34,525 nucleotides of DNA from assembly GCA_003452965.1 (NCBI GenBank), contig DMMW01000010.1:1-34525 (forward strand). The letters run 5' to 3'. The DNA comes from Elusimicrobiota bacterium (lineage in GTDB: Bacteria; Elusimicrobiota; UBA8919). Shown here one piece after another: positions 1,433 to 33,134 of the stretch. Both the position numbers and the translations under genes were made by a program. The stretch's first letter is position 1, and the number at the start of each line of letters is the position of its first letter. The notes beneath the pieces were generated by a model. The model was not told the origin of the DNA. It made no database searches and saw nothing but the letters and a program-made list of their open reading frames with translations.

Positions 1433-2083
1433 CTATGAACTCTTGATGAGTTTTCGACGGTATACTTCTGCTTCTAAAGTATCCATTTGCATGTAGATTT
1501 TTTCACTGAAAAAATTCATTTTGCCTAAAATTTTTGATGCTACAACGGTTTTACAGGCACTTTCAACATACAGTGTTCTGTAATACGCTTCCTTCAAATT
1601 TGAGCCAACTGTTAAAAGTCCATGATTAGCCATTAAAATTGCATTATGGTTTTTTATTACTTCGCTTACTTTGTTTGCAATATTTTTACTACTCGGAACT
1701 GCAAATTTAATAGTAGGTACATTTGAACTGATTATACCTACAAAATCCGGTGTAAATGCTTTTAATGTTTTACCTTGCATTGCATATGCGATAGAATACG
1801 GTGGATGTGTGTGTATTACAGCGGAAATATCTTTTCTTGTATAATAACAGGCGAGATGCATTTGTATTTCGCAGGTCGGTTTTCTATTGTCGTTAATATT
1901 TTTCCCGGTTTTCAGGTTAACTGCGATATAATCAGATTCCTTAGTATCTTCAAAACATGCACCAGATACTTTCATATAAACGGTATTATCTACTCGTACA
2001 CTGGTATTACCGCCGGGTCCGACGACAAAACCTTTATCGGCTAATTCTTTTCCTATTCTAACCAGTTCTTTTTTTATATTCAT
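1433..2083 (-). CDS. Class II aldolase/adducin-family protein (fuculose/rhamnulose-phosphate aldolase-like)
   Basis: Contains GPGGNTSVR, the IHTHPP metal-binding His pair and ANHGLLTVG. The track start at 2089 is a TTG; the first ATG is at 2083. No clear SD, and the heptamer array abuts the start. Confidence 0.8.
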   Translation of the reverse strand: MNIKKELVRIGKELADKGFVVGPGGNTSVRVDNTVYMKVSGACFEDTKESDYIAVNLKTGKNINDNRKPTCEIQMHLACYYTRKDISAVIHTHPPYSIAYAMQGKTLKAFTPDFVGIISSNVPTIKFAVPSSKNIANKVSEVIKNHNAILMANHGLLTVGSNLKEAYYRTLYVESACKTVVASKILGKMNFFSEKIYMQMDTLEAEVYRRKLIKSS

Positions 2084-2090
2084 AATCAAA

Positions 2091-2244
2091 ATTCAGGATA
2101 CAGGATACAGGATACAGAATACAGAATACAGAATACAGGATACAGGATACAGAATACAGGATACAGGATACAGAATACAGAATACAAGATACAGGATACA
2201 GAATACAAGATACAGGATACAGGATACAGGATACAGGATACAGT
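2091..2244. repeat. Tandem heptanucleotide array, ATACAGR x21 plus one degenerate leading unit (ATTCAGG)
   Basis: Counted unit by unit: 12 ATACAGG, 6 ATACAGA, 2 ATACAAG and 1 ATACAGT from 2098 to 2244. Intergenic, between the LsrF-like stop (2288) and the aldolase start (2083). Confidence 0.95.
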
Positions 2245-2287
2245 GCTCAGTAAACAGATTAAGTGATCTCTTTACCCTTCTACCTTT

Positions 2288-3175
2288 CTACCTCTTTACC
2301 TTTGTCGCTAATGTTTTATATAATTCTAACGCTTCTTGTGGTTTCATGTTTTTATGCACAACATTATTTACTGCTTTTATCATTGCAATAGGATTTTCGC
2401 TTTGGAATATGTTTCTGCCCATATCCACACCCGACGCACCCTGCTGTACGGCACTATATGCCATTGTAAGTGCATCCAACACTGGCAGTTTTTTACCGCC
2501 TGCCATAACAATGGGAACAGGACATGATGCCGTTATAGTTTCAAAATCTTCTGGAACATAATATGTTTTTACTACATGTGCACCCAATTCTGCACATATA
2601 CGGCATGCAAGCCGAAAATATTTAGCATCCCTTACCATATCCTTGCCTACTGCGGTTACTGCTAAAACAGGTATTCCATAACGCATTCCCATATCAACCA
2701 ACTTGGTCATATTATGTATTGACCGTGTCTCAAATTCACCTCCGATAAATACCTGTATTGCCATAGCTGATACATTCATTCTGATAGCATCTTCAATATC
2801 AACAGCTATTTCTTCATTTGAAAGTTCTTTTAAGATGCTTGGTCCACCGCTTGTTCTCATAACTATAGGTGTTGTAAACGACGGAGGTATAGTAGTTCTC
2901 AAGATTCCGCGGGTCAACATAATTGCATCTGCATATTTTACAAGCGGAACAATATTTAAATCAATCCGTTCCAATCCGGTTGTAGGTCCCTGAAAATAGC
3001 CATGATCTATTGCCAGCATGACCGTGCGTCCAGTATCGCTGTTGAATATTCTTGACAGGCGGTTTTTCATACCCCAATCTAAAGAATTAGACCCTTTAAG
3101 AAAAAAACATTCCGATTTCATTGGAATATCTTCATAATATTTTTTTTCTTCTTTATTTGCGTCTGTTTCCGGCAT
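2288..3175 (-). CDS. DhnA/FbaB/LsrF-family class I aldolase (TIM barrel)
   Basis: [12 protein letters not shown] and a GAHVVKTYY-type Schiff-base lysine region. The track ORF is trimmed to ATG at 3175 (MPETDANK...), which is preceded by GGAGG on the minus strand. Confidence 0.75.
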
Positions 3176-4639: not shown

Positions 4640-4738
4640 ATGAAAATAGGCTTCATTGGATTAGATAAAATATATAGATGAAAAAATGGTTGCATTGGAA
4701 AATAAATGCAATCCCAAAAAGGTTACTCCATATTTTGT
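4640..4738 (+). pseudogene. Degenerate copy of the first ~100 nt of the ychF-like gene (5614)
   Basis: MKIGFIGLDKIYR* followed by frame-shifted DEKMVALENKCNPKKVTPYFV, compared with MKIGFIGIEIPEGKIKYKDEKFVALENKCEPKKITPYFV at 5614. It has its own AAGGAAG RBS. Confidence 0.75.
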
Positions 4739-4765
4739 TTAATAAAATCTCTTTAAAAAAATTAG

Positions 4766-5617: not shown

Positions 5618-6303
5618 AGATAGGTTTTATCGGGATAGAAATACCTGAGGGTAAGATAAAATACAAAGATGAAAAATTTGTCGCATTGGAAAATAAATGC
5701 GAACCTAAAAAAATAACTCCATATTTTGTAGAATTCATTATTAATGAATTCGTTCAGGTAAACGCTATTGTTATTTCAAAAGATAAAATACTTGATTTGC
5801 TTATTCCCGATATTGAAAAACTTGAAGCACGTGTGCAGAATACAAATGATAATTTTGAAAAAGAATTAATAAAAAAATGTATATCTTGTCTTGAAAATGA
5901 AATGCCTTTATGTGACATCGTTTTTAACGAACAGGAACAGAAACTTCTTCAGATGCTGTCACCGAATAGCATGAAACCGATTGTAATTATTGATGACAAA
6001 GTTGAAACAAACGAAATAATTGAAAAAGTATTAAAAAAATCACAAACTATATTTTTTTATACAGCGGGAAAAGATGAGGTTCATGCCTGGCCTGTAAAAG
6101 CAGGTTCCGATATTGTGACCTGTGCGGGCAGGATACATTCCGATTTAGCACGCGGATTTATAAAAGCGGATATTGTAAGTTTTGACAATTTTATGAAATG
6201 CCATAATTTTAATGATGCCAAGACAAAAGGATTGGTAAAGCTAGTAGATAGGGAATATATTATCCAAGAATCAGATATTATAGAGATACGCTTCAATGTA
6301 TAA
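5614..6303 (+). CDS. YchF-like protein retaining the C-terminal TGS/DUF933 domain but with a degenerate P-loop
   Basis: The C-terminus AWPVKAGSDIVTCAGRIHSDLARGFIKADIVSF...EYIIQESDIIEIRFNV matches the YchF C-terminal domain. The N-terminus MKIGFIGIEIPEGK replaces G(L/I)VGLPNVGKST. GGAGG RBS, and the ATG overlaps the upstream stop. Confidence 0.7.
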   Translation: MKIGFIGIEIPEGKIKYKDEKFVALENKCEPKKITPYFVEFIINEFVQVNAIVISKDKILDLLIPDIEKLEARVQNTNDNFEKELIKKCISCLENEMPLCDIVFNEQEQKLLQMLSPNSMKPIVIIDDKVETNEIIEKVLKKSQTIFFYTAGKDEVHAWPVKAGSDIVTCAGRIHSDLARGFIKADIVSFDNFMKCHNFNDAKTKGLVKLVDREYIIQESDIIEIRFNV

Positions 6304-6630: not shown

Positions 6631-7714
6631 ATTGGAACTTAAATATAAACCGGATTTTGATTATGCAAAAGAAATGTGGAATCATTATTGGGCAAAAGAA
6701 GTATTGAAACGTCCGCTTGTGGTTGCCAATGTAGTTAAACAAGAAGGAAAAACTGTTGATAAAGATAAGTATAAGTATTATAATGCATGTACGAAGAATT
6801 ATAGAGAACAACTGACGATAATTGATGAATGGTTGGATAATACGTTATTTCTTGCTGAATCAATTCCGTGTTTTTCTCCAAGTCACGGTCCTGACCAGTT
6901 TGCTGCAATGCTCGGTGCTGATTTAAAATTTTCAGAAAGTAGCAAAACTACGAATTGGGTAGAACCTATAGTAGAAAATTGGGAAGAATTTATCCCGAAG
7001 ATTAAATTAAATGAAAATAATTCCGTCTGGCAAAGTCTTCTGGAATATTCAAAGATTCTTAAAGAACATTCAAAGGGGAAATATCTCGTTGGGATTTGCG
7101 ATTTTTATTCAAATGCCGATATGTTAAGTGCGATTCGGTCTCCGGCTAAATTGTGTATGGATTTTTATGATTATCCCGAATCAATAGCAAAGGCAATGTT
7201 ATCAGTCAGAAAATTATATAAAACGGTATATAATTCTTTATATGAAGCAGGCGGAATGAACAACGAAACCGGTACTATAGGGTGGATTCCTTTTTGGTGT
7301 AAAGATAAATATGCAACGATTCAATGTGATTTTATATGTATGGTATCACCGAAAATTGCAAATGAATATATAATTCCGGCATTAGAGGAAGAGGCGAATT
7401 TTCTTGACCATTGCATCTATCATCTTGACGGTCCCGGAGCATTACCACATCTTGATAATATTCTTGCAATAAAAAAAATTGATGCAATTCAGTGGATACC
7501 CGGTGATGGGCAGCCGCCGCAGTATGAATGGATTGATGTTCTGAAAAAATGCCAGAAAGCTGGTAAGGGACTTCAGATTTTGGATGTCACAAGCATAGAT
7601 ATTATAAAAAAATTCAGCAAAGAACTCAGTCCGGAAGGACTGGTATACTGCATAGACGTAAAGACTGAAAGAGAAGTTGATGAAATAACGACATGGCTTG
7701 AAAAAAACACTTGA
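6617..7714 (+). CDS. Hypothetical protein, possibly a uroporphyrinogen-decarboxylase (URO-D)-like TIM-barrel family member
   Basis: 365-aa ORF. The overall pattern (SHGPDQFAAMLGA..., CIYHLDGPGALPHLDNILAIKKIDAIQWIPG) recalls URO-D/MtaA-like proteins. The family call is from memory only. Confidence 0.4.
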   Translation: MKRSKLELKYKPDFDYAKEMWNHYWAKEVLKRPLVVANVVKQEGKTVDKDKYKYYNACTKNYREQLTIIDEWLDNTLFLAESIPCFSPSHGPDQFAAMLGADLKFSESSKTTNWVEPIVENWEEFIPKIKLNENNSVWQSLLEYSKILKEHSKGKYLVGICDFYSNADMLSAIRSPAKLCMDFYDYPESIAKAMLSVRKLYKTVYNSLYEAGGMNNETGTIGWIPFWCKDKYATIQCDFICMVSPKIANEYIIPALEEEANFLDHCIYHLDGPGALPHLDNILAIKKIDAIQWIPGDGQPPQYEWIDVLKKCQKAGKGLQILDVTSIDIIKKFSKELSPEGLVYCIDVKTEREVDEITTWLEKNT

Positions 7715-7926
7715 AGCTCCATCCCGATAACAATCGGGATTATAACATTTACCATAAGATTTTAAGGAGCGGAATCCGGCCCGTCAAGGCTTCGGCCTTG
7801 GCTGGCTGCAGGATGAAGCTCCATCCCGATAACAATCGGGATTATAACATTTACCATAAGATTTTAAGGAGCGGAATCCGGCCCGTCAAGGCTTCGGCCT
7901 TGGCTGGCTGCAGGATGAAGCTCCAT
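7712..7926 (+). repeat. Perfect 102-bp tandem duplication (7712-7813, 7814-7915) plus an 11-nt third start; each unit carries two hairpins
   Basis: The two units are identical by direct reading. Hairpin A is atcccgat-aaca-atcgggat (7721-7740 and 7823-7842). Hairpin B is caaggc-ttcg-gccttg (7785-7800 and 7887-7902), a C(UUCG)G tetraloop on the + strand. The array begins at the stop codon of the upstream gene. Confidence 0.95.
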
Positions 7927-8964: not shown

Positions 8965-8993
8965 TTGACATACTTTACGAGACGGTATATAAT
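8965..8993 (+). promoter_or_regulatory. Consensus sigma70-type promoter TTGACA-17-TATAAT upstream of otsA
   Basis: TTGACA at 8965-8970 and TATAAT at 8988-8993 with exact 17-nt spacing, about 60 nt upstream of the otsA ATG. Confidence 0.55.
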
Positions 8994-9052
8994 TAAAGGT
9001 GTTCCAACCTCTATACTCTATATGCTAATCTCTGTTGTTATTAGGAGGCAAA

Positions 9053-10516
9053 ATGTGGGATAAGAATGTTCTGCAAGATTTAATGAAGGAAAAATTGGCA
9101 AAATATAAATTTATTATAGTTTCCAATAGACAGCCTTATGTTTTTGATTATGTTGGAAGAAAAGTTAAATGTACAAAAACTATAGGTGGTTTGGTAACAG
9201 CAATGGATCCCGTAATGCAGGCCTCAGAAGGTGTATGGGTAGCTGCTTCTTCAGGTGATGCCGATAACAGTGTTATTGACAAAAATAATATTGTAAAAGT
9301 TCCTCCTGAAAAATCTGCATATTCAATGAAATTGATAAATCTAACAAAAAATGAAGAACAAGGTTATTATTACGGTTATTCAAATCAGGCATTATGGCCG
9401 TTAAGTCATATTGCGTATCGTCAGCCCAATTTTATGCATTCCGATTGGGAGACTTATAAAAATGTAAATAAAAGATTTGCAGAAAGTGTTCTGGAATTGT
9501 TTGATGATAAGCAGCCTTTTATTTGGTTACAGGATTATCATTTAACTCTTTGTGCAAAATACATAAAAGAAAAAAAACCGGAAGCGGTGAGTTCCCTTTT
9601 TTGGCATATACCATGGCCAAATCCGGAAGTTTTCAGAGTATGTCCTCAGAAAACTGAAATTTTAGAGGGATTGTTAGCGAATGATTTATTGGGTTTTCAT
9701 ATCAAATATCATTGTCATAATTTTCTTGAAACATGTGAAATTGAATTAGAATCAAAAGTTGACTGGGAAGAATCAGCAGTAACGTATAAGGGACATAAGA
9801 CTTTAATTAAAGATTTTCCTATAAGTGTGGATTTTGAATCATTGTCTGAAATGGCTGGTAGTGCAGATGTTACTAAAAAGGTCGAGGATTTGTCTTTTGA
9901 AATAGACCCTCCGTATGAAATTCTTGCACTGAGTATTGACAGAGTTGATTATACAAAAGGTATAATTGAAAAAATTCGGGCTGTAGATAAATTTTTAGAA
10001 AAATATCCTGAATACCATAAAAAATTCGTTTTTTTTCAAAAGGGTGCGCTTAGCAGATTACATATTAAGGCATATAAGGAATTAATAGATGAAATTCAAG
10101 CGTTGACTGAGGAAATAAACTGGAAATATCGTTCCGGCAATTGGTATCCGATTGTGCTTTTAAACAAGAAAATTGATTATACAACGCATATCGCTTTATA
10201 TCGGGCATGCGATTTGTGTTTGGTAGGTTCTCTTCATGATGGAATGAATTTGGTTGCAAAAGAATTTATCTCTGCTAATGTTGATATAAAAGGCATTCTA
10301 ATGTTATCAAAATTCACAGGTGCCGCTAGGGAACTGAAAGATGCTGTTCTGGTAAATCCGTACGATACCGAAGGTTTTGCTGATGCTATAAAAATGGCGA
10401 TTGAAATTCCGCCCAATGAAAAAAAGGAACAGATAAAAAGGATGCGCGAACATATTCAAGAAAACAATATTTATAAGTGGGCTGGCAAGTTTATAAGCAC
10501 ATTAATAAAAATATAA
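9053..10516 (+). CDS. otsA: Trehalose-6-phosphate synthase (GT20)
   Basis: IVSNRQPY, NQALWPLSH, WLQDYHL, FWHIPWP, DRVDYTKGI and HDGMNLVAKEF. GGAGG lies before the ATG at 9053. Confidence 0.9.
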   Translation: MWDKNVLQDLMKEKLAKYKFIIVSNRQPYVFDYVGRKVKCTKTIGGLVTAMDPVMQASEGVWVAASSGDADNSVIDKNNIVKVPPEKSAYSMKLINLTKNEEQGYYYGYSNQALWPLSHIAYRQPNFMHSDWETYKNVNKRFAESVLELFDDKQPFIWLQDYHLTLCAKYIKEKKPEAVSSLFWHIPWPNPEVFRVCPQKTEILEGLLANDLLGFHIKYHCHNFLETCEIELESKVDWEESAVTYKGHKTLIKDFPISVDFESLSEMAGSADVTKKVEDLSFEIDPPYEILALSIDRVDYTKGIIEKIRAVDKFLEKYPEYHKKFVFFQKGALSRLHIKAYKELIDEIQALTEEINWKYRSGNWYPIVLLNKKIDYTTHIALYRACDLCLVGSLHDGMNLVAKEFISANVDIKGILMLSKFTGAARELKDAVLVNPYDTEGFADAIKMAIEIPPNEKKEQIKRMREHIQENNIYKWAGKFISTLIKI

Positions 10517-10536
10517 AAGCGGGCTATAGCACATAT

Positions 10537-12009
10537 ATGATTAAATTAATAAAAAAAATGTCTTTTAAATTAAAATTGATTATAATTATTTCTTTTATAA
10601 ATATTTTGGTTATATCTATTATTTCATATATAAGCATGCTCCACATGGAAAGAAGTTTAAAAGAGAGAATGGAATTAAGAACCAAGGTGATTGTTGATGT
10701 AATAGTACATAGCATTGATGACGAGACAAAATTAAAACGAGAGGTAATAGAAGAATATTCTAACTTTATTATCAATGAACGGGAGATACAATATATAGCA
10801 TTTTTTGATAAAAGAAATAATTTAATAAGTATAGCCGGTGAACGTGGAAAAACTGAAATTAAATTTGTTACAGAAAATATATTTGATATGCAAGATAATA
10901 TATACGATGTTTACGGGGAGATAATAGGAAAAAATAAAATAAAAATAGGTTCTATAATAGTAGGATTCCCGATTACAAAGCTGAAGCAGGCAATTAATAA
11001 AGGAGTAGTAACAAGTATAATATTATGGTTAATAGCTATCGTCGTGATAATGATTTTTAATTATTCAAGTTTAACATATTTTTTACGACCTATCAGAGAT
11101 TTATTTCGTGCAGCTGAATGTGTTTCCAAAAGGGACTTTAATTGCAAGATACCTGTTTATAATGCTGATGAAATCGGAAAAATATCAGAACAATTTAATC
11201 TTATGATAGTTGAATTAGAATCTTTTTATAATTCACTTGAGGAAAAAGTTAAAATAGCAACTAATGGATTAGAAGCATCAAATGAAAAATTAAAAGAGAA
11301 AACAAAAGAGTTGGAAGAAATGGATAAAAGGAAAACAGAGTTTGTTTCCATTGTCGCCCATGATTTAAGGTCGCCTCTTACTTCAATGATGGGTTTTGCG
11401 GATACATTAAACAATGAAAATTTAAATTTAAGCGAACAAGACAAAAAAAGATATATAAATATAATACGCACTGAAACGCGGCGACTATCAAAGCTAATTT
11501 CAAATTTCCTTGATATATCTTTAATTGAAGAAAACAAAATTGTTATGGATGCTGAAAAAACAGATTTAGAAGAATTAATTAATGATGTGCTTAATTCTAT
11601 GAGCGAAAACATAATAAAAGGGATAAGAATATCGCTTGAAGTTGGAGAAGATATTCCTCAAATTTATATGGACAGAGATAGAATAATTCAAGTTTTACAG
11701 AATCTCATTATCAATGCATTAAAATATTCACCTGAGATGTCTGAGATTAAAATTATAGCCAAAAGGTTTCCCGATGAAGTAAGGATAAGTGTAATAGACC
11801 AAGGTCCTGGAATACCGGACAGGCAAAAAGAAAAAATATTTAATAAATTTAGCAAATTGAGTGAACAAAAAGCAAAAAAGGAGTCTGGAATAGGTTTAGG
11901 ATTGTTCATAGCAAAATCTATTGTTAATCTGCATGGTGGCAAAATATGGGTTGAAGATGCTGAAAATAAAGGCAGTAATTTTTCATTTACATTGCCAATA
12001 AAGGAATAA
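10537..12009 (+). CDS. Membrane sensor histidine kinase (2 TM, extracytoplasmic domain, HAMP, HisKA, HATPase_c); no cognate response regulator in the window
   Basis: H-box FVSIVAHDLRSPL, N-box NLIINALKYS, G1 DQGPGIP and G2 GIGLGLFIAKS. HAMP-like ADEIGKISEQFNLM follows the second TM. Confidence 0.85.
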   Translation: MIKLIKKMSFKLKLIIIISFINILVISIISYISMLHMERSLKERMELRTKVIVDVIVHSIDDETKLKREVIEEYSNFIINEREIQYIAFFDKRNNLISIAGERGKTEIKFVTENIFDMQDNIYDVYGEIIGKNKIKIGSIIVGFPITKLKQAINKGVVTSIILWLIAIVVIMIFNYSSLTYFLRPIRDLFRAAECVSKRDFNCKIPVYNADEIGKISEQFNLMIVELESFYNSLEEKVKIATNGLEASNEKLKEKTKELEEMDKRKTEFVSIVAHDLRSPLTSMMGFADTLNNENLNLSEQDKKRYINIIRTETRRLSKLISNFLDISLIEENKIVMDAEKTDLEELINDVLNSMSENIIKGIRISLEVGEDIPQIYMDRDRIIQVLQNLIINALKYSPEMSEIKIIAKRFPDEVRISVIDQGPGIPDRQKEKIFNKFSKLSEQKAKKESGIGLGLFIAKSIVNLHGGKIWVEDAENKGSNFSFTLPIKE

Positions 12010-12013
12010 AGTA

Positions 12014-13417
12014 GTGTTTAGAAAATATTTTCCGAAAGAAATAAAAATAAAACAAAGAGTTTTTGAACAGAGTATTCTAATAGCAAGTATCGTAAAATGG
12101 ACTTTATTGGCGATAATAATAGGAACTGTTGTAGGATTTTCTACCGGACTATTTTTATTTTCTTTGGATATTACAATTAGTTTTTTTAATAGATTTAATT
12201 ATTATTTTTTTATTTTACCAATAATTATTTTACTTATTGCCATAACAATAAGGAATATTTCTCCTGAATCGGAGGGACATGGCACAGAAAAAGTTATAGA
12301 ATCTATTCATAAAACACACGGACAAATTTCTTGGAAGGTTATACCCATCAAAGCCATAACTTCGATTCTTACTATTACTTTCGGAGGTTCGGTAGGTAAG
12401 GAAGGCCCTTGCGCACAGATAGGGGGTGGAATAGCTTCTTTATTCTCAAACATTTTAAAATTTCATCCAATTGACCGTAAAAAACTTGTAATTTGTGGAA
12501 TAAGTGCCGGTTTTGCTGCCGTTTTTGGAACTCCTATTGCTGGTGCGCTTTTCGGTGTTGAGGTTTTGTTCATAGGACAGATTTTTTATGAAGTATTATA
12601 TCCGTCTTTCATTGCTGGAATTGTGGGTTTTCAAACCTGCAGATTATTCGGTATAACATATTTCACACATCCGATAAATCTTGTCCCTAAATTTACTGAT
12701 TTATTTTTATTAAAAGTAGTTGCTTTTTCAATTCTTATTGGTTTGGTTGCATATTTATTCATTGAGACATTAAATTTCACCCATAAAAAGTTCAAAAAGA
12801 TTCCTTATAAAAAGAGAGCTATATTAGGTGGTTTATTAGTTGTATTTATTGTACAGGTTACTTCTCGGAGATATCTTGGACTTGGATTGGATACTATAGC
12901 GCAAGCTATCAATGGTGAACATATACCTAAACTTGCTTTTTTGTGGAAGACAATAGTAACATCTATTACATTGTCATGTGGCGGTAGTGGTGGGATTGTG
13001 ACTCCTATTTTTTACGTAGGTGCTGCAAGCGGGAACTTGTTTGCAAGGATATTTAATTTTGATTTAGGTACATTTTCAGCAATTGGTATGACATCTCTTC
13101 TTGCTGCCTGCACAAATACACCAATTGCCTCATCAGTTATGGCGATAGAGTTATTTGGACCCAAAGTGGGTATTTATTCTGCGATTTGTTCAATTATTAG
13201 TTTTACTATAGTTGGCTACAGGTCTGTATATCCAAGCCAAATATTAGGTGTTCTAAAAAGCCAGAGTTTCAAGGTGGAATTAAATAAAGAAATTAAGGAT
13301 GTAGAAAGCACGGAACAATTCAAGATGTTTTCACAACGAAATACATTAACACATATTATAATATCAATATATTTAAAGATAAAAAAATGTAGATTATTCA
13401 TGAAAAAAAAGAAATGA
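12014..13417 (+). CDS. ClC-family voltage-gated chloride channel / H+-Cl- antiporter
   Basis: GGSVGKEGP, FGTPIAGALFGVE and GGSGGIVTPIFYVGA, with multiple TM helices. GTG start with AAGGA 8 nt upstream, and no internal Met for over 100 aa. Confidence 0.85.
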   Translation: MFRKYFPKEIKIKQRVFEQSILIASIVKWTLLAIIIGTVVGFSTGLFLFSLDITISFFNRFNYYFFILPIIILLIAITIRNISPESEGHGTEKVIESIHKTHGQISWKVIPIKAITSILTITFGGSVGKEGPCAQIGGGIASLFSNILKFHPIDRKKLVICGISAGFAAVFGTPIAGALFGVEVLFIGQIFYEVLYPSFIAGIVGFQTCRLFGITYFTHPINLVPKFTDLFLLKVVAFSILIGLVAYLFIETLNFTHKKFKKIPYKKRAILGGLLVVFIVQVTSRRYLGLGLDTIAQAINGEHIPKLAFLWKTIVTSITLSCGGSGGIVTPIFYVGAASGNLFARIFNFDLGTFSAIGMTSLLAACTNTPIASSVMAIELFGPKVGIYSAICSIISFTIVGYRSVYPSQILGVLKSQSFKVELNKEIKDVESTEQFKMFSQRNTLTHIIISIYLKIKKCRLFMKKKK

Positions 13418-13476
13418 AATATTTTTTTAAAGAATTAGGAAAAATAAAAGGGTACAAAATATTAAGAAAATTATGA
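13414..13476 (+). pseudogene. Duplicated, truncated 5' end of otsB (MKYFFKELGKIKGYKILRKL*)
   Basis: A 37-nt exact match, 13412-13448 = 13701-13737. Its ATG overlaps the ClC stop (ATGA), as expected for the ancestral ClC/otsB junction. Confidence 0.8.
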
Positions 13477-13649
13477 AAAATCATGGTTTTTCACTAGACG
13501 CGATATTTTCATCAAGGCATGCCTTGATGAACGGCTCAAAAAACACTAAAATTTCAAAACTCACTTGCTATGCTCGTTCAGACAGTTGAAATTTTTTAAC
13601 GGTTTTTTATCGCCTAAATATCGCTATATCGTTCAAAACCAGATTTTTC
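13475..13649. mobile_element. 175-bp non-coding element with imperfect ~35-nt terminal inverted repeats and two internal hairpins (MITE-like or structured RNA)
   Basis: The left end gaaaaatcatggtttt...gcgatattt matches the reverse complement of the right end, gaaaaatctggtttt...gcgatattt. Internal features are the 22-bp perfect palindrome tcatcaaggcatgccttgatga (13509-13530) and the pair aaaatttcaa/ttgaaatttt (13548-13605). Confidence 0.5.
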
Positions 13650-13702
13650 GATAATGTAATTATTCTTGAAAGATGTGAATTATTTTTTAAAAAAAATAAA
13701 AA

Positions 13703-14473
13703 ATGAAATATTTTTTTAAAGAATTAGGAAAAATAAAGAAAAAAATAAAAGGATATAAAATATTACTCTGCCTGGATTATGATGGTACTCTAACCCCCAT
13801 AGTTAAAAAGCCAGAATATGCCAAACTCGGGCAAAACATTAAGCATGCTTTAGAAAACATTAAAAGTAATAAAAATATTATATTGGCTATAATATCAGGC
13901 AGGACTTTATCAGGAATAAAAAAATTAGTCAATCTTAGAAATGTTATTTATGCAGGCAATCACGGTTTTGAAATAGAGATAGGCAGGGATGTTTTTATCC
14001 ATCGGGGACTCAAGGAAGCTATTCCGATAATCAGCAAAATAAAAAAAGCGATAAGTAAAAAAATAAAAGGAATACGGGGTGCATTTATTGAGGATAAAGA
14101 ATTTACATTAAGCATTCATTGGCGGTTGGTCAAAAAAAAATATTTAAATAAGTTGTTTCTAATAATTAAAAATATTATACATAATAATAGTAAAATAAGA
14201 TTAACCATAGGTAAAAAGGTATGGGAAATCAGGCCTAATATTGCTTGGGATAAGGGTAAAGCCGTTGAATTAATATATTCAAAAGTAAATAAAAATAATA
14301 ATTTAAAAATCATATATATAGGTGATGATACAACTGATGAAGATGCTTTCTCGGTATTGAAAAAAGAAATAACAATAAAAATCGGTAAATCAAATAAGTC
14401 AAAAGCAAAATATTATTTAAAAAAACAATCAGAAATAAAAAATATTCTCAATTTATTGAGTAATATAGGCTGA
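13703..14473 (+). CDS. otsB: Trehalose-6-phosphate phosphatase (HAD-IIB)
   Basis: LCLDYDGTLTP (DxDGT), ISGR, and the WDKG...YIGDDTTDEDAF motif. Confidence 0.85.
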   Translation: MKYFFKELGKIKKKIKGYKILLCLDYDGTLTPIVKKPEYAKLGQNIKHALENIKSNKNIILAIISGRTLSGIKKLVNLRNVIYAGNHGFEIEIGRDVFIHRGLKEAIPIISKIKKAISKKIKGIRGAFIEDKEFTLSIHWRLVKKKYLNKLFLIIKNIIHNNSKIRLTIGKKVWEIRPNIAWDKGKAVELIYSKVNKNNNLKIIYIGDDTTDEDAFSVLKKEITIKIGKSNKSKAKYYLKKQSEIKNILNLLSNIG

Positions 14474-14484
14474 TAATATATTTT

Positions 14485-15132
14485 ATGAATAATCCGTTTA
14501 TTTTCTTTACACGTTTCAATCTCACCGAGCTTTTAGGGATAAAGGCAAAGAACATAATAGAACTTCTTGAAGGCATTAAATCTGTTCCGGGTTCATCCAT
14601 TTATTTTCATACGCACAGATATATTCAGCAGCACCATTTTTTATCTCCCGAGCCACCGAATGATTTTGCCTATTGGGTTACAAATATTTTACAGGAAGAT
14701 AAACTTGGCGAGCGGTTGGCATCAATTGATATAATACAATTCAAAAAAATTTCAGATATTAGAGAAATATTTATTACAATAATAGAACAATACATAAACA
14801 GAAATCCGTCAAGCAGACAAGCATATGAAGGGGAACAGTTCCACTTTATGAAATCAATCTCATTTATAATGAAAACCCAATATTCTGCAAAGGATTTGAA
14901 GGAATTTCTCGAAATTGTAAAAAAAGTATCTATACACTCCATATATTTCCATATGTTTGAAGCGCGGCTTCGTCTTGAAAAAGTGGAAAATGATTTTTCG
15001 TACTGGATGACAACTGAGTTAAGAGAGGGGGATTTAGCGGATAAGATATCAAAACTGGACCCATATACTCAAACATTGGAATCATTAAGAAATGAAATAA
15101 TATTTTTGATTGAAAAGAGAATAAATGGCTAA
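14485..15132 (+). CDS. Conserved-looking hypothetical protein built from two homologous half-repeats
   Basis: SIYFHTHRY...PNDFAYWVTNILQEDKLGERLASID compares with SIYFHMFEA...ENDFSYWMTTELREGDLADKISKLD. The gene overlaps the treT-like start by 8 nt. Confidence 0.6.
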   Translation: MNNPFIFFTRFNLTELLGIKAKNIIELLEGIKSVPGSSIYFHTHRYIQQHHFLSPEPPNDFAYWVTNILQEDKLGERLASIDIIQFKKISDIREIFITIIEQYINRNPSSRQAYEGEQFHFMKSISFIMKTQYSAKDLKEFLEIVKKVSIHSIYFHMFEARLRLEKVENDFSYWMTTELREGDLADKISKLDPYTQTLESLRNEIIFLIEKRING

Positions 15133-16357
15133 AATAAATGATTATATTAAAATAGTAGGTGAGGATATAATAGAAGAGTTAAAAATCCTTAGTGAAAGAT
15201 TAAAAGGTAAAGTTATCCAAAATATCAATTCTACCTCTGTAGGTGGAGGTGTTGCAGAGATATTGAACAGAATAGTTCCGCTAATGAATGAACTTGGAGT
15301 GGATACCCGTTGGGATTTGATAAAAGGCGGCGAAAGATTTTTCAATATAACAAAGAGATTTCACAATACGCTGCATGGCATACCAGCCGAAATAAGCGAC
15401 GAAGAATTTGATTATTTTTTACAAGTGGAAAACGAGAACGCACAAGCGATAAATTTTTATGGCGATGTGATATTGATTCATGACCCGCAACCAATCGGGC
15501 TTATCAACAGAAAAAAAGATTTCGGTAATAATAAGAAGTGGATATGGAGATGCCATATTGACATTTCCCATCCCGAAATTAAGGTATGGGATTTTTTAAA
15601 GCAGTTTATTAATTCATACGATGCATCAATATTTTCTGCTCCGGTGTTTTCAAAGGAACTTCCCATAAAACAATTCTTAATCTCACCATCTATAGATCCG
15701 CTTTCCGATAAAAACAAAGAACTTGATGCATCTACTATTGATTCTGTTTTATATAAATATAAAATTACCAAAGATAAACCGATTATAACACAGATTTCAC
15801 GCTATGATATATTGAAAGACCCGCTTGGAGTAATAGATGCGTTCAAATTAGTACGGAAACATATTGATTGTCAATTAATACTTGCTGGAAATACAGCTAC
15901 TGATGATCCGGAACATGACAAGGTTTTAAATATGGTAAAAGAGAAAGCTGGAAATGATTCGGATATTCATATACTTGTAATAGAACCTGCAAATAATGAT
16001 ATTGAAATAAACGCTTTACAGCGTGCATCGGATATAGTTTTACAAAAATCACTTAAGGAAGGCTTCGGACTTACAGTTTCTGAAGCACTTTGGAAGAAAA
16101 AACCTGTAATTGCAGGGGCTGTTGGTGGAATTCCGCTACAAATTACGCATAAACATTCTGGAATTCTTACCCATACTGTGGAAGGAACGGCTTATTGGAT
16201 AAAACAACTCATTAATTCGCCTGAATATGCCAAAAAACTCGGTCTAAACGGGCATGAACACATAAAGAACAATTTTCTTCTAACTCGCCATATTCTCGAA
16301 TACTTTCTTTTATTCACTTCACTTTATCACAGCGGTGACATCATCCACCTTAATTAG
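15125..16357 (+). CDS. GT4 glycosyltransferase of the TreT (trehalose glycosyltransferring synthase) type
   Basis: N-terminal NSTSVGGGVAEILNRIVPLMNELGVDTRWDLIKG..FFNITKRFHNTLHG is typical of TreT-like enzymes. The C-terminal E(x7)E region is EGFGLTVSEALWKKKPVIAG. Confidence 0.75.
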   Translation: MAKINDYIKIVGEDIIEELKILSERLKGKVIQNINSTSVGGGVAEILNRIVPLMNELGVDTRWDLIKGGERFFNITKRFHNTLHGIPAEISDEEFDYFLQVENENAQAINFYGDVILIHDPQPIGLINRKKDFGNNKKWIWRCHIDISHPEIKVWDFLKQFINSYDASIFSAPVFSKELPIKQFLISPSIDPLSDKNKELDASTIDSVLYKYKITKDKPIITQISRYDILKDPLGVIDAFKLVRKHIDCQLILAGNTATDDPEHDKVLNMVKEKAGNDSDIHILVIEPANNDIEINALQRASDIVLQKSLKEGFGLTVSEALWKKKPVIAGAVGGIPLQITHKHSGILTHTVEGTAYWIKQLINSPEYAKKLGLNGHEHIKNNFLLTRHILEYFLLFTSLYHSGDIIHLN

Positions 16358-26847: not shown

Positions 26848-27238
26848 GGGGGCTGGGACTATGCTCTTGACTTTTTATTGTAGTATGTCCCCCAAGGTCC
26901 ATAGTAAACAACGAATGGTATTTTGGGGAATACAATACCTAAATAACGTCAAAAAAAATGAAAAATCAATGAAAACACAACTAATTGCTGAAGCAAACGT
27001 ATGGTGGAAATTTGGTAAAAACTTTTCTTACATATCAAAAGAATTACAAAGGAATTGACCCTACCCCATTAAATTTTACTAATACTAAATCCTATCTAAA
27101 AATTACTTGACAATTTATGAATATTATTATAAGACATATATGTAATATAAATGATAGTATACACGGTAAATGCGAGCAAATAATAGCATACTCATAAGTA
27201 TCCTACTCGTGAGTATTCTAACTAAAAGGGTGCGGTTT

Positions 27239-27574
27239 ATGGAGCATAAATTCATAAATAGAAAATCTGAAATTGATTCATTAGAAAAAAAGTGGGAAGA
27301 GAAAAAAAGCCACTTGATTATTGTTTACGGCAAAAGGCGTGTAGGTAAAACGGAAATCATAAAACAGTTTATTAAAAATAAACCCTCTGTATATTTCTTG
27401 GCTGACAAACGGACTATAAACGAACAACTCAAAGAATTAGGCAGGTTATTCGGCGCTCATTTCAAAGATGCCCTACTTGAAAAGAACGGATTTACCGACG
27501 ATATGCTGAAACTGGCGAAACAAGAACGTGTTTACTTAGTCAACAAGAACGAATTGATTGAGATGCAAGAGTAA
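27239..27574 (+). pseudogene. Internally deleted ATPase of the Arch_ATPase + DUF234 type (N-terminal ~95 aa joined to the last ~30 aa)
   Basis: FINRKSEIDSLEKKW..HLIIVYGKRRVGKTEIIKQFIKNKPSVYFLA (Walker A) runs directly into GFTDDMLKLAKQERVYLVNKNEL, the typical extreme C-terminus of such ~450-aa proteins. Confidence 0.6.
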
Positions 27575-27624
27575 TAAGACAGTATAGGTCGCGACAGAGC
27601 AACAGTTTATAAGTTAAAGATTGA

Positions 27625-27891
27625 TTCGTTGCATTAGTATTTAAAGAAATTGGACGAGCTGACGAGATGGGGTCGGGTGTCAGGAAACTCTATAAATATT
27701 GTAAAATCAACTCGGGATTAAATCCCCAGTTGATAGAAGAGGATATATTTAAAATTATTATTCCATTAGATGAGCAAGTTGGTGAGCAAGTCCTAAAGAT
27801 ACTTAAATACTGTAAAATCTCAAGAAAGAAGCAAGAAATATCCGATATGTTATATCCCGACGAAGGAACGGAAATCTTTCACTTTATATGA
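27625..27891 (+). pseudogene. C-terminal fragment of a COG2865-type (HATPase_c_4 + wHTH) protein, paralogous to the 27961 gene
   Basis: FKEIGRADEMGSGVRKLYKYCKINSGLNPQLIEEDIFKIIIPL compares with QQAGSGTLEMLKQCKAKGLPEPDF in the intact neighbour. The open frame starts only at 27625, just after a stop. Confidence 0.5.
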
Positions 27892-27923
27892 TAAAAGATG
27901 AAAAACCAAAAAGACCCCGTTCC

Positions 27924-27951
27924 TTGATTTTTCACTGTAAAAGAGTATAAT
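27924..27951 (+). promoter_or_regulatory. Putative promoter TTGATT-16-TATAAT ending 9 nt before the ATG (near-leaderless transcript)
   Basis: TTGATT at 27924-27929 and TATAAT at 27946-27951, with the ATG at 27961 and no SD between them. Confidence 0.4.
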
Positions 27952-27960
27952 CAAATCATT

Positions 27961-29436: not shown

Positions 29437-29452
29437 AGGGGCGATAATGGGG
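29407..29452 (+). repeat. Five phased GGGG runs (~11-nt period; GGGGCGATAAT-type units) overlapping the gene's stop; canonical G-quadruplex motif
   Basis: GGGG at 29407, 29418, 29427, 29438 and 29449, with loops of 5-7 nt. The unit ggggcgataat occurs exactly twice. Confidence 0.9.
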
Positions 29453-29697
29453 CAGAGCATTTAAAAAGACAGTATGTTTTTCCGATATAAAAACAGGAAA
29501 GCGCATTGGTCTCGATAAAGGCGGCCACTGGATTATCCTTCGTAGCAATAATAAAGTGGGAAAAGTTGTAGAGAAATAAAAAGAAAAATGTAAAGCGTCC
29601 ACATTTTCCTAATACACAATATGACACACAGATAAAGAACCTAAAATTAGGATTATCATTTCAAAACATAGGTCCCAAAATGACATTTATACAAGAG

Positions 29698-29875
29698 TGA
29701 CCCCACCCCCGAAAACTGTACCAGTTGAAATTAGAGTTTAGAAATGGTAAACTAAACTCATGGGGGTATGGTTATGAAACAGGGCAGGTACAAGGAAGAG
29801 CAGATTATCGGGATATTGAAGGAAGCAGAAGCCGGCATAAAGATAGATAAATTATGCCGTAAATAAGGATTAAAT
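29698..29875 (+). mobile_element. Truncated IS3-family remnant: left end (TGACCCCACCCCC...) plus the first 30 codons of orfA
   Basis: MKQGRYKEEQIIGILKEAEAGIKIDKLCRK* (29774-29866) matches the conserved IS3 OrfA HTH N-terminus (..EEQIIGILKEAEAG....LCRK). A TGA-initiated terminal sequence lies about 75 nt upstream. No remainder of the transposase is present. Confidence 0.6.
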
Positions 29876-29881
29876 GAGATT

Positions 29882-33121: not shown

Positions 33122-33134
33122 TGAAGTATAATTT

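What the first reader, a model, noticed from the sequence alone, without database searches (positions are those of the whole stretch)
8965..16357. Trehalose genes, an orphan sensor kinase and a ClC channel organised as one tight operon; both OtsAB and TreT routes are present
A consensus TTGACA-17-TATAAT promoter precedes six same-strand genes: otsA, a HAMP histidine kinase, ClC, otsB, a two-repeat unknown protein and a TreT-like synthase.

The gaps or overlaps are 20 nt, 4 nt, an ancestral ATGA overlap, 11 nt and an 8-nt overlap.

Placing an ion channel/antiporter and a membrane sensor between otsA and otsB suggests an integrated osmotic or ionic stress module. As I recall, an archaeal precedent links trehalose synthesis genes to a mechanosensitive channel in one operon (Thermoproteus tenax tpsp-gt-msc).

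No response regulator is encoded here, so the kinase's output is unknown. It might act directly on a pathway component.
Basis: partly seen in the sequence, partly recalled or inferred. Interest (0 to 1): 0.5.

Follow-up and report, generated by a model that had tools for sequence, protein, structure and literature searches.

The report
Trehalose operon with channel and kinase
A groundwater Elusimicrobiota bacterium carries a widely conserved four-gene trehalose-making cassette into which a chloride-channel-family gene, then a partner-less sensor kinase, then a small mobile repeat were inserted; the channel link recurs in other bacteria and looks functional, while the kinase is found in this one species only.

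Summary
The six same-strand genes and the perfect TTGACA-17-TATAAT promoter are real. One stated junction is wrong for the present sequence. ClC and otsB are 285 nt apart, split by a 175-nt MITE-like repeat flanked by a diverged ~75-nt duplication of the old ClC/otsB junction.

Comparative work changes the picture:
- **Core cassette.** The core is otsA-otsB-DUF5752-treT, found in 51 of 59 surveyed loci across Elusimicrobiota, Omnitrophota, Planctomycetota and Krumholzibacteriota.
- **ClC.** It lies between otsA and otsB in the closest relatives and joins the cassette in at least three other positions elsewhere. An MscS channel occupies the same slot, or lies just upstream, in 19 genomes.
- **Kinase.** It is unique to this species. 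In seven of seven loci holding its closest homologues (39-55% identity), the kinase lies elsewhere, followed by receiver-only regulators.
- **OtsA.** In most cassettes OtsA carries a fused Cache-HAMP membrane sensor. Here it does not.

Verdict: a derived variant of an osmotic-stress module analogous to the T. tenax msc-gt-tpsp operon. The channel link is supported. The kinase's role is unresolved.

The parts
8965..8993 (+). sigma-70-type promoter-like site TTGACA-17-TATAAT. It lies 10 nt after the LDH stop and 59 nt before the otsA ATG, which has an AGGAGG Shine-Dalgarno.
   Evidence: 12/12 match, the only perfect one in the window. Function not tested.
9053..10516 (+). otsA, trehalose-6-phosphate synthase (GT20). 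This is the 'short' 487-aa type, without the Cache-HAMP membrane extension.
   Evidence: Pfam PF00982 413 bits. TIGR02400 433 bits, below its 565 cut-off. 79% identical to L022 otsA. Short versus long types.
10537..12009 (+). Membrane sensor histidine kinase: TM, ~130-aa extracytoplasmic domain, TM, HAMP, HisKA, HATPase_c. A lineage-specific insertion with no adjacent response regulator.
   Evidence: Pfam. Homologues and their contexts. Absent at the same junction in L022.
12014..13417 (+). ClC-family anion transporter or channel of an atypical 'GHGTE' subfamily, with no CBS domains. GTG start 4 nt after the kinase stop.
   Evidence: Pfam PF00654 254 bits. PDB comparisons and motif alignment. 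Orthologues attached to the cassette.
13414..13476 (+). Remnant of the original otsB 5' end: 20 codons, MKYFFKELGKIKGYKILRKL*. Its ATG overlaps the ClC stop (ATGA).
   Evidence: Compare the intact otsB start at 13703 and the L022 junction.
13393..13464 (+). Copy 1 of the duplicated ClC-end/otsB-start junction.
   Evidence: searches (D5, D11; D1, D2): 89-92% identical to copy 2, with a 12-nt indel.
13475..13649 (.). MITE-like inserted repeat: imperfect terminal inverted repeats, an internal 24-nt perfect palindrome (13508-13531), and no ORF of its own.
   Evidence: I11, I12. Folding of a 238-nt stretch containing it (13465-13702) gives z = -5.3. The same element continues into a different gene in L008. 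No Rfam match.
13682..13765 (+). Copy 2 of the duplicated junction. It supplies the present otsB start and its upstream 20 nt.
13703..14473 (+). otsB, trehalose-6-phosphate phosphatase.
   Evidence: Pfam PF02358 163 bits. TIGR00685 153 bits, above its 68 cut-off.
14485..15132 (+). DUF5752 / OrfY-family protein with two structural repeats. It is the invariable upstream partner of treT.
15125..16357 (+). treT, trehalose glycosyltransferring synthase (GT4). It overlaps DUF5752 by 8 nt and is followed by a convergent gene.
   Evidence: Pfam TreT_GT1 184 bits. PDB 6zj4 E 7e-116 and 2x6q E 5e-98.

Best explanation
The locus is a derived version of a widespread bacterial trehalose cassette, otsA-otsB-orfY(DUF5752)-treT. 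The cassette makes trehalose by two routes: OtsA/OtsB from NDP-glucose plus glucose-6-phosphate, and TreT from NDP-glucose plus glucose. OrfY probably acts as a stoichiometric partner or regulator of TreT.

**Order of events in the window's lineage**
1. A ClC-family anion transporter was inserted between otsA and otsB. This step is shared with relatives UBA4817 and CG06.
2. A membrane Cache-like/HAMP histidine kinase, without its receiver genes, landed exactly between otsA and ClC. This is seen in this species only.
3. A MITE-like repeat split ClC from otsB, and a duplicated junction rebuilt the otsB start.

**How it probably works**
- All six genes are probably still transcribed from the consensus promoter at 8965.
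- The module pairs solute synthesis with a membrane ion pathway, as MscS does in sister cassettes and in T. tenax. The ClC would move anions during osmotic shifts, either as a counter-ion shunt or as a release valve.
- The kinase most likely signals to distal single-domain or GGDEF-linked receivers, as its homologues do. Whether that output touches trehalose is unknown.

**Shown:** gene identities, synteny statistics, the order of insertions, and OrfY homology.
**Inferred:** co-transcription, the ClC's ion and its direction of transport, the role of OrfY, and the kinase's output.
For: - **Core cassette.** otsA-otsB-DUF5752-treT, with or without accessory genes, occurs in 51 of 59 genome loci that have enough upstream sequence. 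DUF5752 is adjacent to treT in 72/72.
- **Enzyme identities.** TreT homology. OtsB equivalog.
- **DUF5752 = OrfY.**. It is 55-70% identical across phyla.
- **ClC linkage.**
  - L022 reads otsA-ClC-otsB-DUF5752-treT. L021 and L100 read ClC-otsB-DUF5752-treT.
  - ClC lies downstream of treT in L058, L063, L098, L108, L119, L120 and L127.
  - ClC lies after otsB in L104, L161 and L142, and upstream of otsA in L117 and L178.
  - In all, 13 of 80 ClC-subfamily loci touch the cassette.
  - TreT is the top neighbour family of this ClC.
- **Slot equivalence.**
  - MscS lies between otsA and otsB in L037, L040, L060, L072 and L082.
  - CBS + Na/H exchanger fills the slot in L089.
  - MscS lies directly upstream of otsA in 14 loci.
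- **Order of insertion.** L022 junctions are TAA|ATG and TAATG. In the window the kinase has 20-nt and 4-nt spacers and ClC starts with GTG.
- **Read-through.** No terminator-like site was found in the ClC-otsB gap or between the genes.
- **Precedent.** T. tenax msc-gt-tpsp is co-transcribed, and the GT activates TPSP (PMC3634074).
Against: - There are no expression data. The 285-nt structured insert (z -5.3) could attenuate or uncouple otsB-orfY-treT from the upstream genes.
- The otsB start now has no obvious Shine-Dalgarno and has lost translational coupling to ClC.
- The ClC's ion is unknown.
  - Its filter is atypical: GHGTE replaces GSGIP, and Glu_in is Val.
  - Its nearest solved relative is a fluoride/proton antiporter.
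- 67 of 80 ClC-subfamily loci show no trehalose genes, though many of those contigs are short.
- The kinase has no comparative support at all.
- OrfY is labelled 'transcription factor' in PDB 4cso. It may therefore be a regulator rather than an enzyme partner.
Confidence: 0.62

Rival explanations
1. The kinase is a passenger. Either a duplicated or translocated kinase gene lost its receiver genes, or the ClC-otsB segment replaced them. It then became fixed inside the operon with no functional tie to trehalose. It signals, if at all, to distal receivers that control unrelated processes such as c-di-GMP turnover.
For: - All 7 examined loci that hold its homologues place it next to receiver-only genes, and often next to an RR-GGDEF-RR gene, in non-trehalose contexts.
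- The closest cassette relative lacks it.
- No other cassette among 80 + 80 loci has a kinase inserted.
- Apart from identical copies, the nearest homologue is 55% identical.
Against: - The insertion is clean, co-directional and in a translationally tight position (20-nt and 4-nt gaps).
- All catalytic motifs are intact (HDLRSPL H-box, DxGxG, GxGLGL).
- It is present in every contig of the species that reaches far enough.
- Most sister cassettes wire a Cache-HAMP membrane sensor directly to OtsA. Sensor input at exactly this position is therefore the norm, and this OtsA lacks it.
Confidence: 0.45
2. TreT and OrfY are not a second synthetic route. TreT runs in reverse to mobilise trehalose (trehalose + NDP gives NDP-glucose + glucose). 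Alternatively, TreT/OrfY act as protein activators of OtsA/OtsB, as the GT4 protein does for TPSP in T. tenax.
For: - Thermococcales TreT is reversible (established knowledge; see the review PMC11046441).
- The T. tenax GT4 protein activates TPSP by complex formation (PMC3634074).
- The four genes are kept together in 51/59 loci. Such constancy is hard to explain by simple redundancy.
Against: - The best structural relative is the Thermoproteus-type TreT (6zj4, E 7e-116).
- In T. tenax that type is reported as a unidirectional synthase (PMC3634074).
- The T. tenax activator GT is PimA-like, not TreT-like.
- No trehalose uptake system lies beside the cassette.
Confidence: 0.2
3. The ClC is a fluoride or other toxic-anion exporter, and its position in the operon is incidental.
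For: - The nearest solved structure is the CLC-F F-/H+ antiporter: 6d0j, E 3e-35 for the single sequence and 1e-48 for the profile. ClC-ec1 scores 1e-16 and about 5e-28.
- Like CLC-F, it has Val at the Glu_in position and a VTP motif.
Against: - The CLC-F signatures are not met. The gating motif is GKEGP, not GREG(V/T). The E318 position of GGEVTP is Ile (GGIVTP).
- No fluoride riboswitch or any other Rfam family was found in the window.
- The recurrent, multi-position linkage to the trehalose cassette, and interchange with MscS in the same slot, argue for a role tied to the cassette.
Confidence: 0.08
4. The MITE-like insertion has functionally split the cluster into two units, otsA-kinase-ClC and otsB-orfY-treT. 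The 'six-gene operon' would then be historical rather than current.
For: - There is a 285-nt gap holding a strongly structured element.
- Weak promoter-like matches lie at 13330-13373 and 13524-13552.
- The duplicated junction preserves an independent otsB start.
Against: - No terminator-like hairpin with a T-run lies in the gap.
- The internal palindrome is followed by A-rich, not T-rich, sequence.
- None of the internal promoter-like sites scores better than 10/12.
Confidence: 0.25

Closest known systems
Thermoproteus tenax msc-gt-tpsp operon (Zaparty et al. 2013, PMC3634074)
   Same: Trehalose-6-P synthase and phosphatase activities, a GT4 glycosyltransferase and a membrane channel sit on one transcript. 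The proposed logic is to make the solute under stress and vent through the channel on relief. Sister bacterial cassettes found here carry an MscS gene in the same way.
   Different: Here TPS and TPP are separate genes. The GT4 is a true TreT rather than a PimA-like activator. An OrfY gene is present. The channel is a ClC rather than an MscS-like protein. A histidine kinase is inserted. The paper states the arrangement is unique to Thermoproteales, and the bacterial cassettes seen here extend it.
T. tenax OrfY (PDB 4cso) with the unidirectional TreT pathway (Kouril et al. 2008; the orfY-treT gene pairing is recalled from memory, paper not held)
   Different: The bacterial proteins are far more conserved (55-70% identity across phyla). 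They carry an invariant HTHR..QQH...SPEPPNDF..W motif that is only partly present in OrfY. The pair is welded to otsA-otsB. OrfY's function is unknown in both.
Escherichia coli otsBA operon
   Same: The same two enzymes act in osmotically relevant trehalose synthesis.
   Different: The order is otsA then otsB. In E. coli there are no TreT, OrfY, channel or sensor genes in the operon. In E. coli regulation is by RpoS, not by an encoded sensor (established knowledge).
ClC-ec1 Cl-/H+ exchanger and CLC-F F-/H+ antiporters
   Same: The ClC fold and the gating glutamate (GKEGP) are present. The protein is short, with no CBS domains. It has Val at Glu_in and a VTP motif, like CLC-F.
   Different: Ser_cen is His (GHGTE for GSGIP). 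It lacks the CLC-F GREG(V/T) motif and E318. No member of this subfamily has been characterised as far as I know.
Canonical HAMP sensor kinases with adjacent receivers (for example the Elusimicrobiota homologues P0002-P0009)
   Same: The same domain order and 45-55% identity over the full length.
   Different: The receiver gene that follows 3-83 nt downstream in the homologous loci is replaced here by ClC, so the kinase is an orphan within this window.

Membership tests
OtsA (GT20 trehalose-6-phosphate synthase) | Full-length GT20 domain | tested here: met
   PF00982 413 bits, residues 19-484.
OtsA (GT20 trehalose-6-phosphate synthase) | Score above the NCBIfam equivalog cut-off (TIGR02400) | tested here: not met
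   433 bits against a cut-off of 565. Glucosylglycerol-P synthase scores lower, at 286 bits.
OtsB (trehalose-6-phosphate phosphatase) | TIGR00685 equivalog score above cut-off | tested here: met
   153 bits against a cut-off of 68. PF02358 163 bits.
TreT (GT4 trehalose glycosyltransferring synthase) | Full-length homology to structurally and biochemically defined TreT enzymes, including the TreT-specific N-terminal domain | tested here: met
   6zj4 E 7e-116 over residues 4-397. 2x6q E 5e-98. PF21269 184 bits.
TreT (GT4 trehalose glycosyltransferring synthase) | NCBIfam equivalog cut-off (NF041139, a Thermococcales model) | tested here: not met
   372 bits against 775. The model is clade-specific.
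TreT (GT4 trehalose glycosyltransferring synthase) | Trehalose synthesis from NDP-glucose + glucose, and its directionality | not testable with these tools
   Needs an enzyme assay.
OrfY / DUF5752 | Two-repeat fold and sequence-profile match to T. tenax OrfY | tested here: met
OrfY / DUF5752 | Gene adjacent to treT | tested here: met
   8-nt overlap in the window. 72/72 loci.
ClC Cl-/H+ exchanger (ClC-ec1 type) | GSGIP with central Ser, gating Glu (G[KR]EGP), internal Glu (E203), GxFxP | tested here: not met
   GHGTE (Ser to His), GKEGP present, E203 to Val, GIVTP (alignment to 4ene/3ejz). ClC fold membership is met (PF00654).
CLC-F fluoride/proton antiporter | GREG(V/T) gating motif and the Glu of GGEVTP (E318). 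The signature is recalled from the CLC-F literature. | tested here: not met
   GKEGP and GGIVTP. This is despite the best PDB E-value being to 6d0j.
Two-component system | Kinase with H-box and ATP-binding domain | tested here: met
   HisKA 61 bits, HATPase_c 104 bits, HAMP 31 bits.
Two-component system | Cognate response regulator encoded alongside | tested here: not met
   No receiver domain was found in any ORF of at least 100 aa in the window. In the loci of its homologues, a receiver gene follows the kinase.
Operon (single transcription unit) | Same strand, short gaps, one promoter, no internal terminator | tested here: inconclusive
   Four junctions are 20 nt or less. One is 285 nt and holds a structured repeat. 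No terminator-like site was predicted. Co-transcription cannot be tested here.
T. tenax-type trehalose + channel operon | Channel gene co-oriented with and contiguous to the TPS/TPP genes, recurring in relatives | tested here: met
   ClC in the window, L021, L022 and L100, and at other positions in 12 or more loci. MscS in 19 loci.
T. tenax-type trehalose + channel operon | Fused TPSP and a PimA-like activator GT | tested here: not met
   otsA and otsB are separate genes, and the GT4 is TreT.

The most novel reading that the evidence does not exclude
In most versions of this cassette, OtsA is a membrane protein with a periplasmic Cache-like domain and a HAMP-like linker fused directly to the GT20 enzyme (35 of 55 loci). 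That makes it a one-component osmotic or envelope sensor that gates trehalose-6-P synthesis.

The window's lineage has the short, sensor-less OtsA. It has instead acquired, immediately downstream of otsA, a separate Cache-like/HAMP kinase with no receiver.

The most novel reading is that this kinase is a split replacement for the lost sensor. It would control OtsA, or ClC, directly, by interaction or phosphorylation, rather than through a transcription factor. The embedded ClC or MscS would be the coupled ion or solute valve of a self-contained osmostat.
Probability: 0.12. Interest if true: 0.7.

Novelty: new variant of a known kind. Interest (0 to 1): 0.5.

Why it matters
Trehalose is a major stress solute, but how bacteria sense the need for it and couple synthesis to ion and solute fluxes is poorly defined outside E. 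coli.

This locus led to four observations:
- A four-gene cassette, otsA-otsB-orfY-treT, is conserved across several mostly uncultivated phyla.
- The cassette repeatedly recruits membrane channels: MscS, an uncharacterised ClC subfamily, and a Na/H exchanger.
- In most genomes the cassette fuses a Cache-HAMP sensor to OtsA itself.
- DUF5752 is identified as the OrfY family and is always adjacent to treT, which suggests the two proteins work together.

Each observation gives a concrete, testable hypothesis:
- a physiological role for an orphan ClC clade;
- a function for DUF5752/OrfY;
- a sensor-regulated GT20 enzyme.

The kinase in this window is a single-species curiosity unless it is shown to act on the pathway.

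Tried and rejected
- **Rfam.** A search of the whole window gave no family. There is thus no fluoride or other riboswitch, and no known RNA in the ClC-otsB gap.
- **Literature.** Searches for DUF5752, OrfY, 4CSO, and bacterial otsAB/treT/channel clusters found nothing relevant beyond PMC3634074 and a review. The Kouril 2008 TreT paper is not held.
- **Is the kinase's sensor domain homologous to the Cache-HAMP extension of long OtsA?** The result is inconclusive.
  - BLASTP found nothing beyond a HAMP-region match at E 0.81.
  - hhalign gave 80% probability (E 1.4e-5) with HAMP included, but only 19% for the sensor alone.
  - Both families give only sub-threshold Cache hits.
- **CLC-F.** Assignment of the ClC to CLC-F was considered because of the PDB ranking. 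It was rejected on signature residues.
- **Assembly chimera for the kinase.** Rejected. 16 contigs carry the identical ClC, and the 8 examined all show the kinase upstream where they reach that far.
- **Intrinsic terminator in the MITE-like element.** The palindrome is not followed by a T-run on either strand.
- **Cognate regulator.** It could not be identified. The genome is not in the species-representative collection (best DUF5752 match 70%), and only about 43 kb of contig is available.

Full report
**1. What is in the sequence**

ORF listing and Pfam confirm six co-oriented genes.

| Gene | Coordinates | Evidence |
|---|---|---|
| otsA (GT20) | 9053-10516 | 413 bits |
| TM-sensor-TM-HAMP-HisKA-HATPase_c kinase | 10537-12009 | Pfam domains |
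| ClC | 12014-13417 | 254 bits |
| otsB | 13703-14473 | 163 bits; TIGR00685 above cut-off |
| DUF5752 | 14485-15132 | 231 bits |
| TreT-like GT4 | 15125-16357 | Pfam TreT_GT1 + GT1 |

- A perfect TTGACA-17-TATAAT lies at 8965-8993. It is 10 nt after the LDH stop and 59 nt before an AGGAGG-preceded otsA start.
- It is the only 12/12 match in the window. With one mismatch allowed there are 3 matches against 0.73 expected.
- No receiver domain was found in any ORF of at least 100 aa across the 34.5 kb.
- The organism is a low-GC (about 33%) Elusimicrobiota bacterium from groundwater metagenomes.
- 16 contigs carry the identical ClC. In the 8 examined, from several samples and assemblers, the kinase lies upstream wherever the contig reaches that far. 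L001 is 100% identical to the window over 7.6 kb. The arrangement is therefore real.

**2. The ClC/otsB junction is not tight**

- ClC ends at 13417 and otsB starts at 13703.
- The ATGA at 13414-13417 opens only a 20-codon remnant, MKYFFKELGKIKGYKILRKL*, of the otsB 5' end.
- A 175-nt element with imperfect terminal inverted repeats lies at 13475-13649. It carries a perfect 24-nt palindrome at 13508-13531.
- A 238-nt stretch containing the element (13465-13702) folds far better than shuffles, z -5.3. It has no Rfam match.
- The element lies between two diverged copies (89-92%, with a 12-nt indel) of the old ClC-end/otsB-start junction, 13393-13464 and 13682-13765.
- In contig L008 the same element continues into a different gene, so it is repeated in the community or genome.
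- Relative L022 has ClC TAATG otsB. An overlapping junction is therefore the ancestral state.
- No terminator-like site is predicted in the gap. Read-through is plausible but untested.

**3. The conserved unit is otsA-otsB-OrfY-treT**

- DUF5752 has more than 4000 homologues and is 55-70% identical across phyla.
- I fetched 80 genome loci around DUF5752 and searched them with tblastn using the window's proteins.
- treT follows DUF5752 in 72 of 72 loci that have room for it.
- The order otsA-otsB-DUF5752-treT, with or without accessory genes, is found in 51 of 59 loci with enough upstream sequence. These loci come from Elusimicrobiota, Omnitrophota, Planctomycetota and Krumholzibacteriota.
- The sixth gene is a genuine TreT: E 7e-116 to the T. 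uzoniensis enzyme (6zj4) and 5e-98 to P. horikoshii TreT.
- The family profile hits OrfY at E 8e-32.
- So the 'two-repeat unknown protein' is the OrfY family, and its constant partner is TreT.
- From memory, orfY is also the neighbour of treT in T. tenax (Kouril 2008). That paper could not be read here.
- 'Both routes present' is thus confirmed. It is a fixed property of a widespread cassette, not a peculiarity of this genome.

**4. The channel link is recurrent**

- The closest relative with full context is L022 (UBA4817; otsA 79%, ClC 69% identical). It reads otsA TAA|ATG ClC TAATG otsB-DUF5752-treT.
- L021 and L100 read ClC-otsB-DUF5752-treT.
- Other Elusimicrobiota (L020, L024, L025, L026) lack the ClC.
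- I surveyed 80 metagenome loci of this ClC subfamily. Thirteen carry cassette genes next to the ClC, in at least four arrangements:
  - ClC after treT;
  - ClC after otsB, in a DUF5752-treT-otsA-otsB order;
  - ClC before otsA;
  - ClC between otsA and otsB.
- TreT is the single most frequent neighbour family of this ClC.
- The slot between otsA and otsB also holds other membrane proteins:
  - an MscS channel in five Omnitrophota genomes;
  - a CBS protein plus a Na/H exchanger in L089;
  - a small DUF202 membrane protein in L065.
- MscS lies directly upstream of otsA in 14 more loci.
- This mirrors the T. tenax msc-gt-tpsp operon. There co-transcription and activation of TPSP by the GT were shown, and a 'make the solute, then vent it' model was proposed (PMC3634074).

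**5. What kind of ClC**

- The protein is short and has no CBS domains.
- Aligned to ClC-ec1, it has GHGTE for GSGIP (central Ser to His).
- It keeps the gating Glu (GKEGP), has Val at the internal Glu, and has GIVTP for GIFAP.
- Its best solved relative is the CLC-F F-/H+ antiporter: E 3e-35 for the single sequence and 1e-48 for the profile. ClC-ec1 scores 1e-16 and about 5e-28.
- The CLC-F signatures, recalled from the literature, are absent: it has GKEGP rather than GREG(V/T), and Ile rather than the Glu of GGEVTP.
- The transported ion is therefore unknown.
- A role as an anion shunt or release path during osmotic shifts is an inference from context only.

**6. The kinase is a one-species insertion**

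- Apart from identical copies, the best homologues are 39-55% identical. All named ones are Elusimicrobiota.
- In seven of seven loci examined, the homologue is not near otsA or ClC.
- There it is followed 3-83 nt downstream by one or two receiver-only genes. In three loci it is preceded by an RR-GGDEF-RR gene.
- In the window the gene 4 nt downstream is ClC instead. Its start has become GTG, and its first codons differ from L022.
- The kinase therefore belongs to a canonical phosphorelay family whose usual outputs are CheY-like and GGDEF-linked receivers.
- Its partner here must be encoded elsewhere. It cannot be found with about 43 kb of contig.

**7. An unexpected context for the kinase**

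- In 35 of the 55 cassettes whose otsA 5' end is visible, OtsA is about 744 aa long.
- These long forms carry a conserved 254-aa N-terminal extension: TM helix, about 140-aa periplasmic domain, TM helix, then a HAMP-like segment. Examples include Elusimicrobiota L020 and L024.
- Nine of ten extensions give sub-threshold Cache hits (best E 6.5e-8). Seven of ten give HAMP hits at the expected position (best E 0.006). The profile weakly matches the Af1503 HAMP.
- So sensor-HAMP input fused to the synthase is the usual state of this cassette.
- The window, L022 and L025 have the short OtsA.
- The window's kinase has the same N-terminal architecture. Evidence that the two sensor modules are homologous is weak:
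  - BLASTP finds nothing;
  - hhalign gives 80% with HAMP included and 19% without it.

**8. Verdict**

- **Observation:** confirmed except for the ClC/otsB junction.
- **Interpretation:** supported for 'trehalose genes plus an ion channel as a stress module' and for 'both routes present'. Not supported for conservation of the six-gene order or for any direct kinase action.
- **Best description:** a derived variant of a conserved and, as far as the searchable literature shows, undescribed bacterial cassette. That cassette is analogous to the archaeal msc-gt-tpsp operon.
- **Novelty:** new variant of a known kind.
- **Interest:** 0.5. This is carried mainly by the recurrent ClC/MscS linkage, the identification of OrfY, and the sensor-fused OtsA found in relatives.

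Noticed in passing
L043:6778-9012, L020:1039-3252, L024:6985-9201 and about 32 other loci: In 35 of 55 cassettes, OtsA is a ~744-aa membrane protein: TM, Cache-like periplasmic domain, TM, HAMP-like segment, fused to the GT20 enzyme. The extension is 61-70% conserved between Omnitrophota and Elusimicrobiota. This looks like a one-component sensor-regulated trehalose-6-P synthase. I found no description of it.
   Followed up: partly
L031, L034, L041, L043, L044, L050, L054, L056, L058, L069, L081, L087, L097 (upstream of otsA); L037, L040, L060, L072, L082 (between otsA and otsB): An MscS-family mechanosensitive channel gene (~351 aa) is the commonest accessory gene of the cassette. This extends the T. 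tenax msc-tpsp link to bacteria, although the 2013 paper called that arrangement unique to Thermoproteales.
   Followed up: yes
window 13475-13649, with duplications at 13393-13464 and 13682-13765: A MITE-like structured repeat lies inside the old ClC/otsB overlap, flanked by an unusually long (~75 nt) diverged duplication that regenerated the otsB start. Low-coverage contig L008 joins the same element to an aminotransferase-like gene. That contig is either a second genomic copy or a chimeric assembly through the repeat.
   Followed up: partly
window 7712-7915: A perfect tandem duplication of a 102-nt unit lies between the unknown 365-aa gene and LDH. There are two copies in the window and L004 but one copy in L001 and L003, so copy number varies between assemblies or populations.
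   Followed up: partly
window 2059-2289: A long array of 7-nt units (CAGGATA/CAGAATA, about 25 units) lies in the intergenic region between the class II aldolase and DeoC-like genes.
   Followed up: no
window 4658-4743 and 5649-5734: An 86-nt direct repeat (83% identical) lies just upstream of the UDG-like gene and again near the start of the YchF_C-like gene. Its meaning is unknown.
   Followed up: no
L011:376-3738 and L012:369-3707: A TreS-maltokinase fusion (1112-1120 aa) and an OmpR-type regulator lie about 5 kb from a homologue of the window's kinase in another Elusimicrobiota genome. This is a second, possibly coincidental, kinase-trehalose proximity.
   Followed up: no
L020:7079-8413 and L024:12949-14268: A CitMHS/ArsB-type permease lies about 1 kb downstream of treT in two Elusimicrobiota cassettes that lack the ClC. 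It may be another alternative membrane accessory.
   Followed up: partly
window 27170-34169: A run of defence-like genes: an ATPase_2 fragment, a DUF4062 + HATPase_c_4 protein, a PLD-nuclease/SNF2-helicase fusion (1079 aa), and a YhcG PDDEXK nuclease.
   Followed up: no
window 14485-15132 (alignment A4): DUF5752 has an invariant His-rich motif, Y-H-T-H-R-x-L-Q-Q-H...S-P-E-P-P-N-D-F-A-x-W, in repeat 1 and a degenerate copy in repeat 2. This level of conservation is unusual for a putative transcription factor and suggests a ligand, metal or partner-binding site.
   Followed up: no
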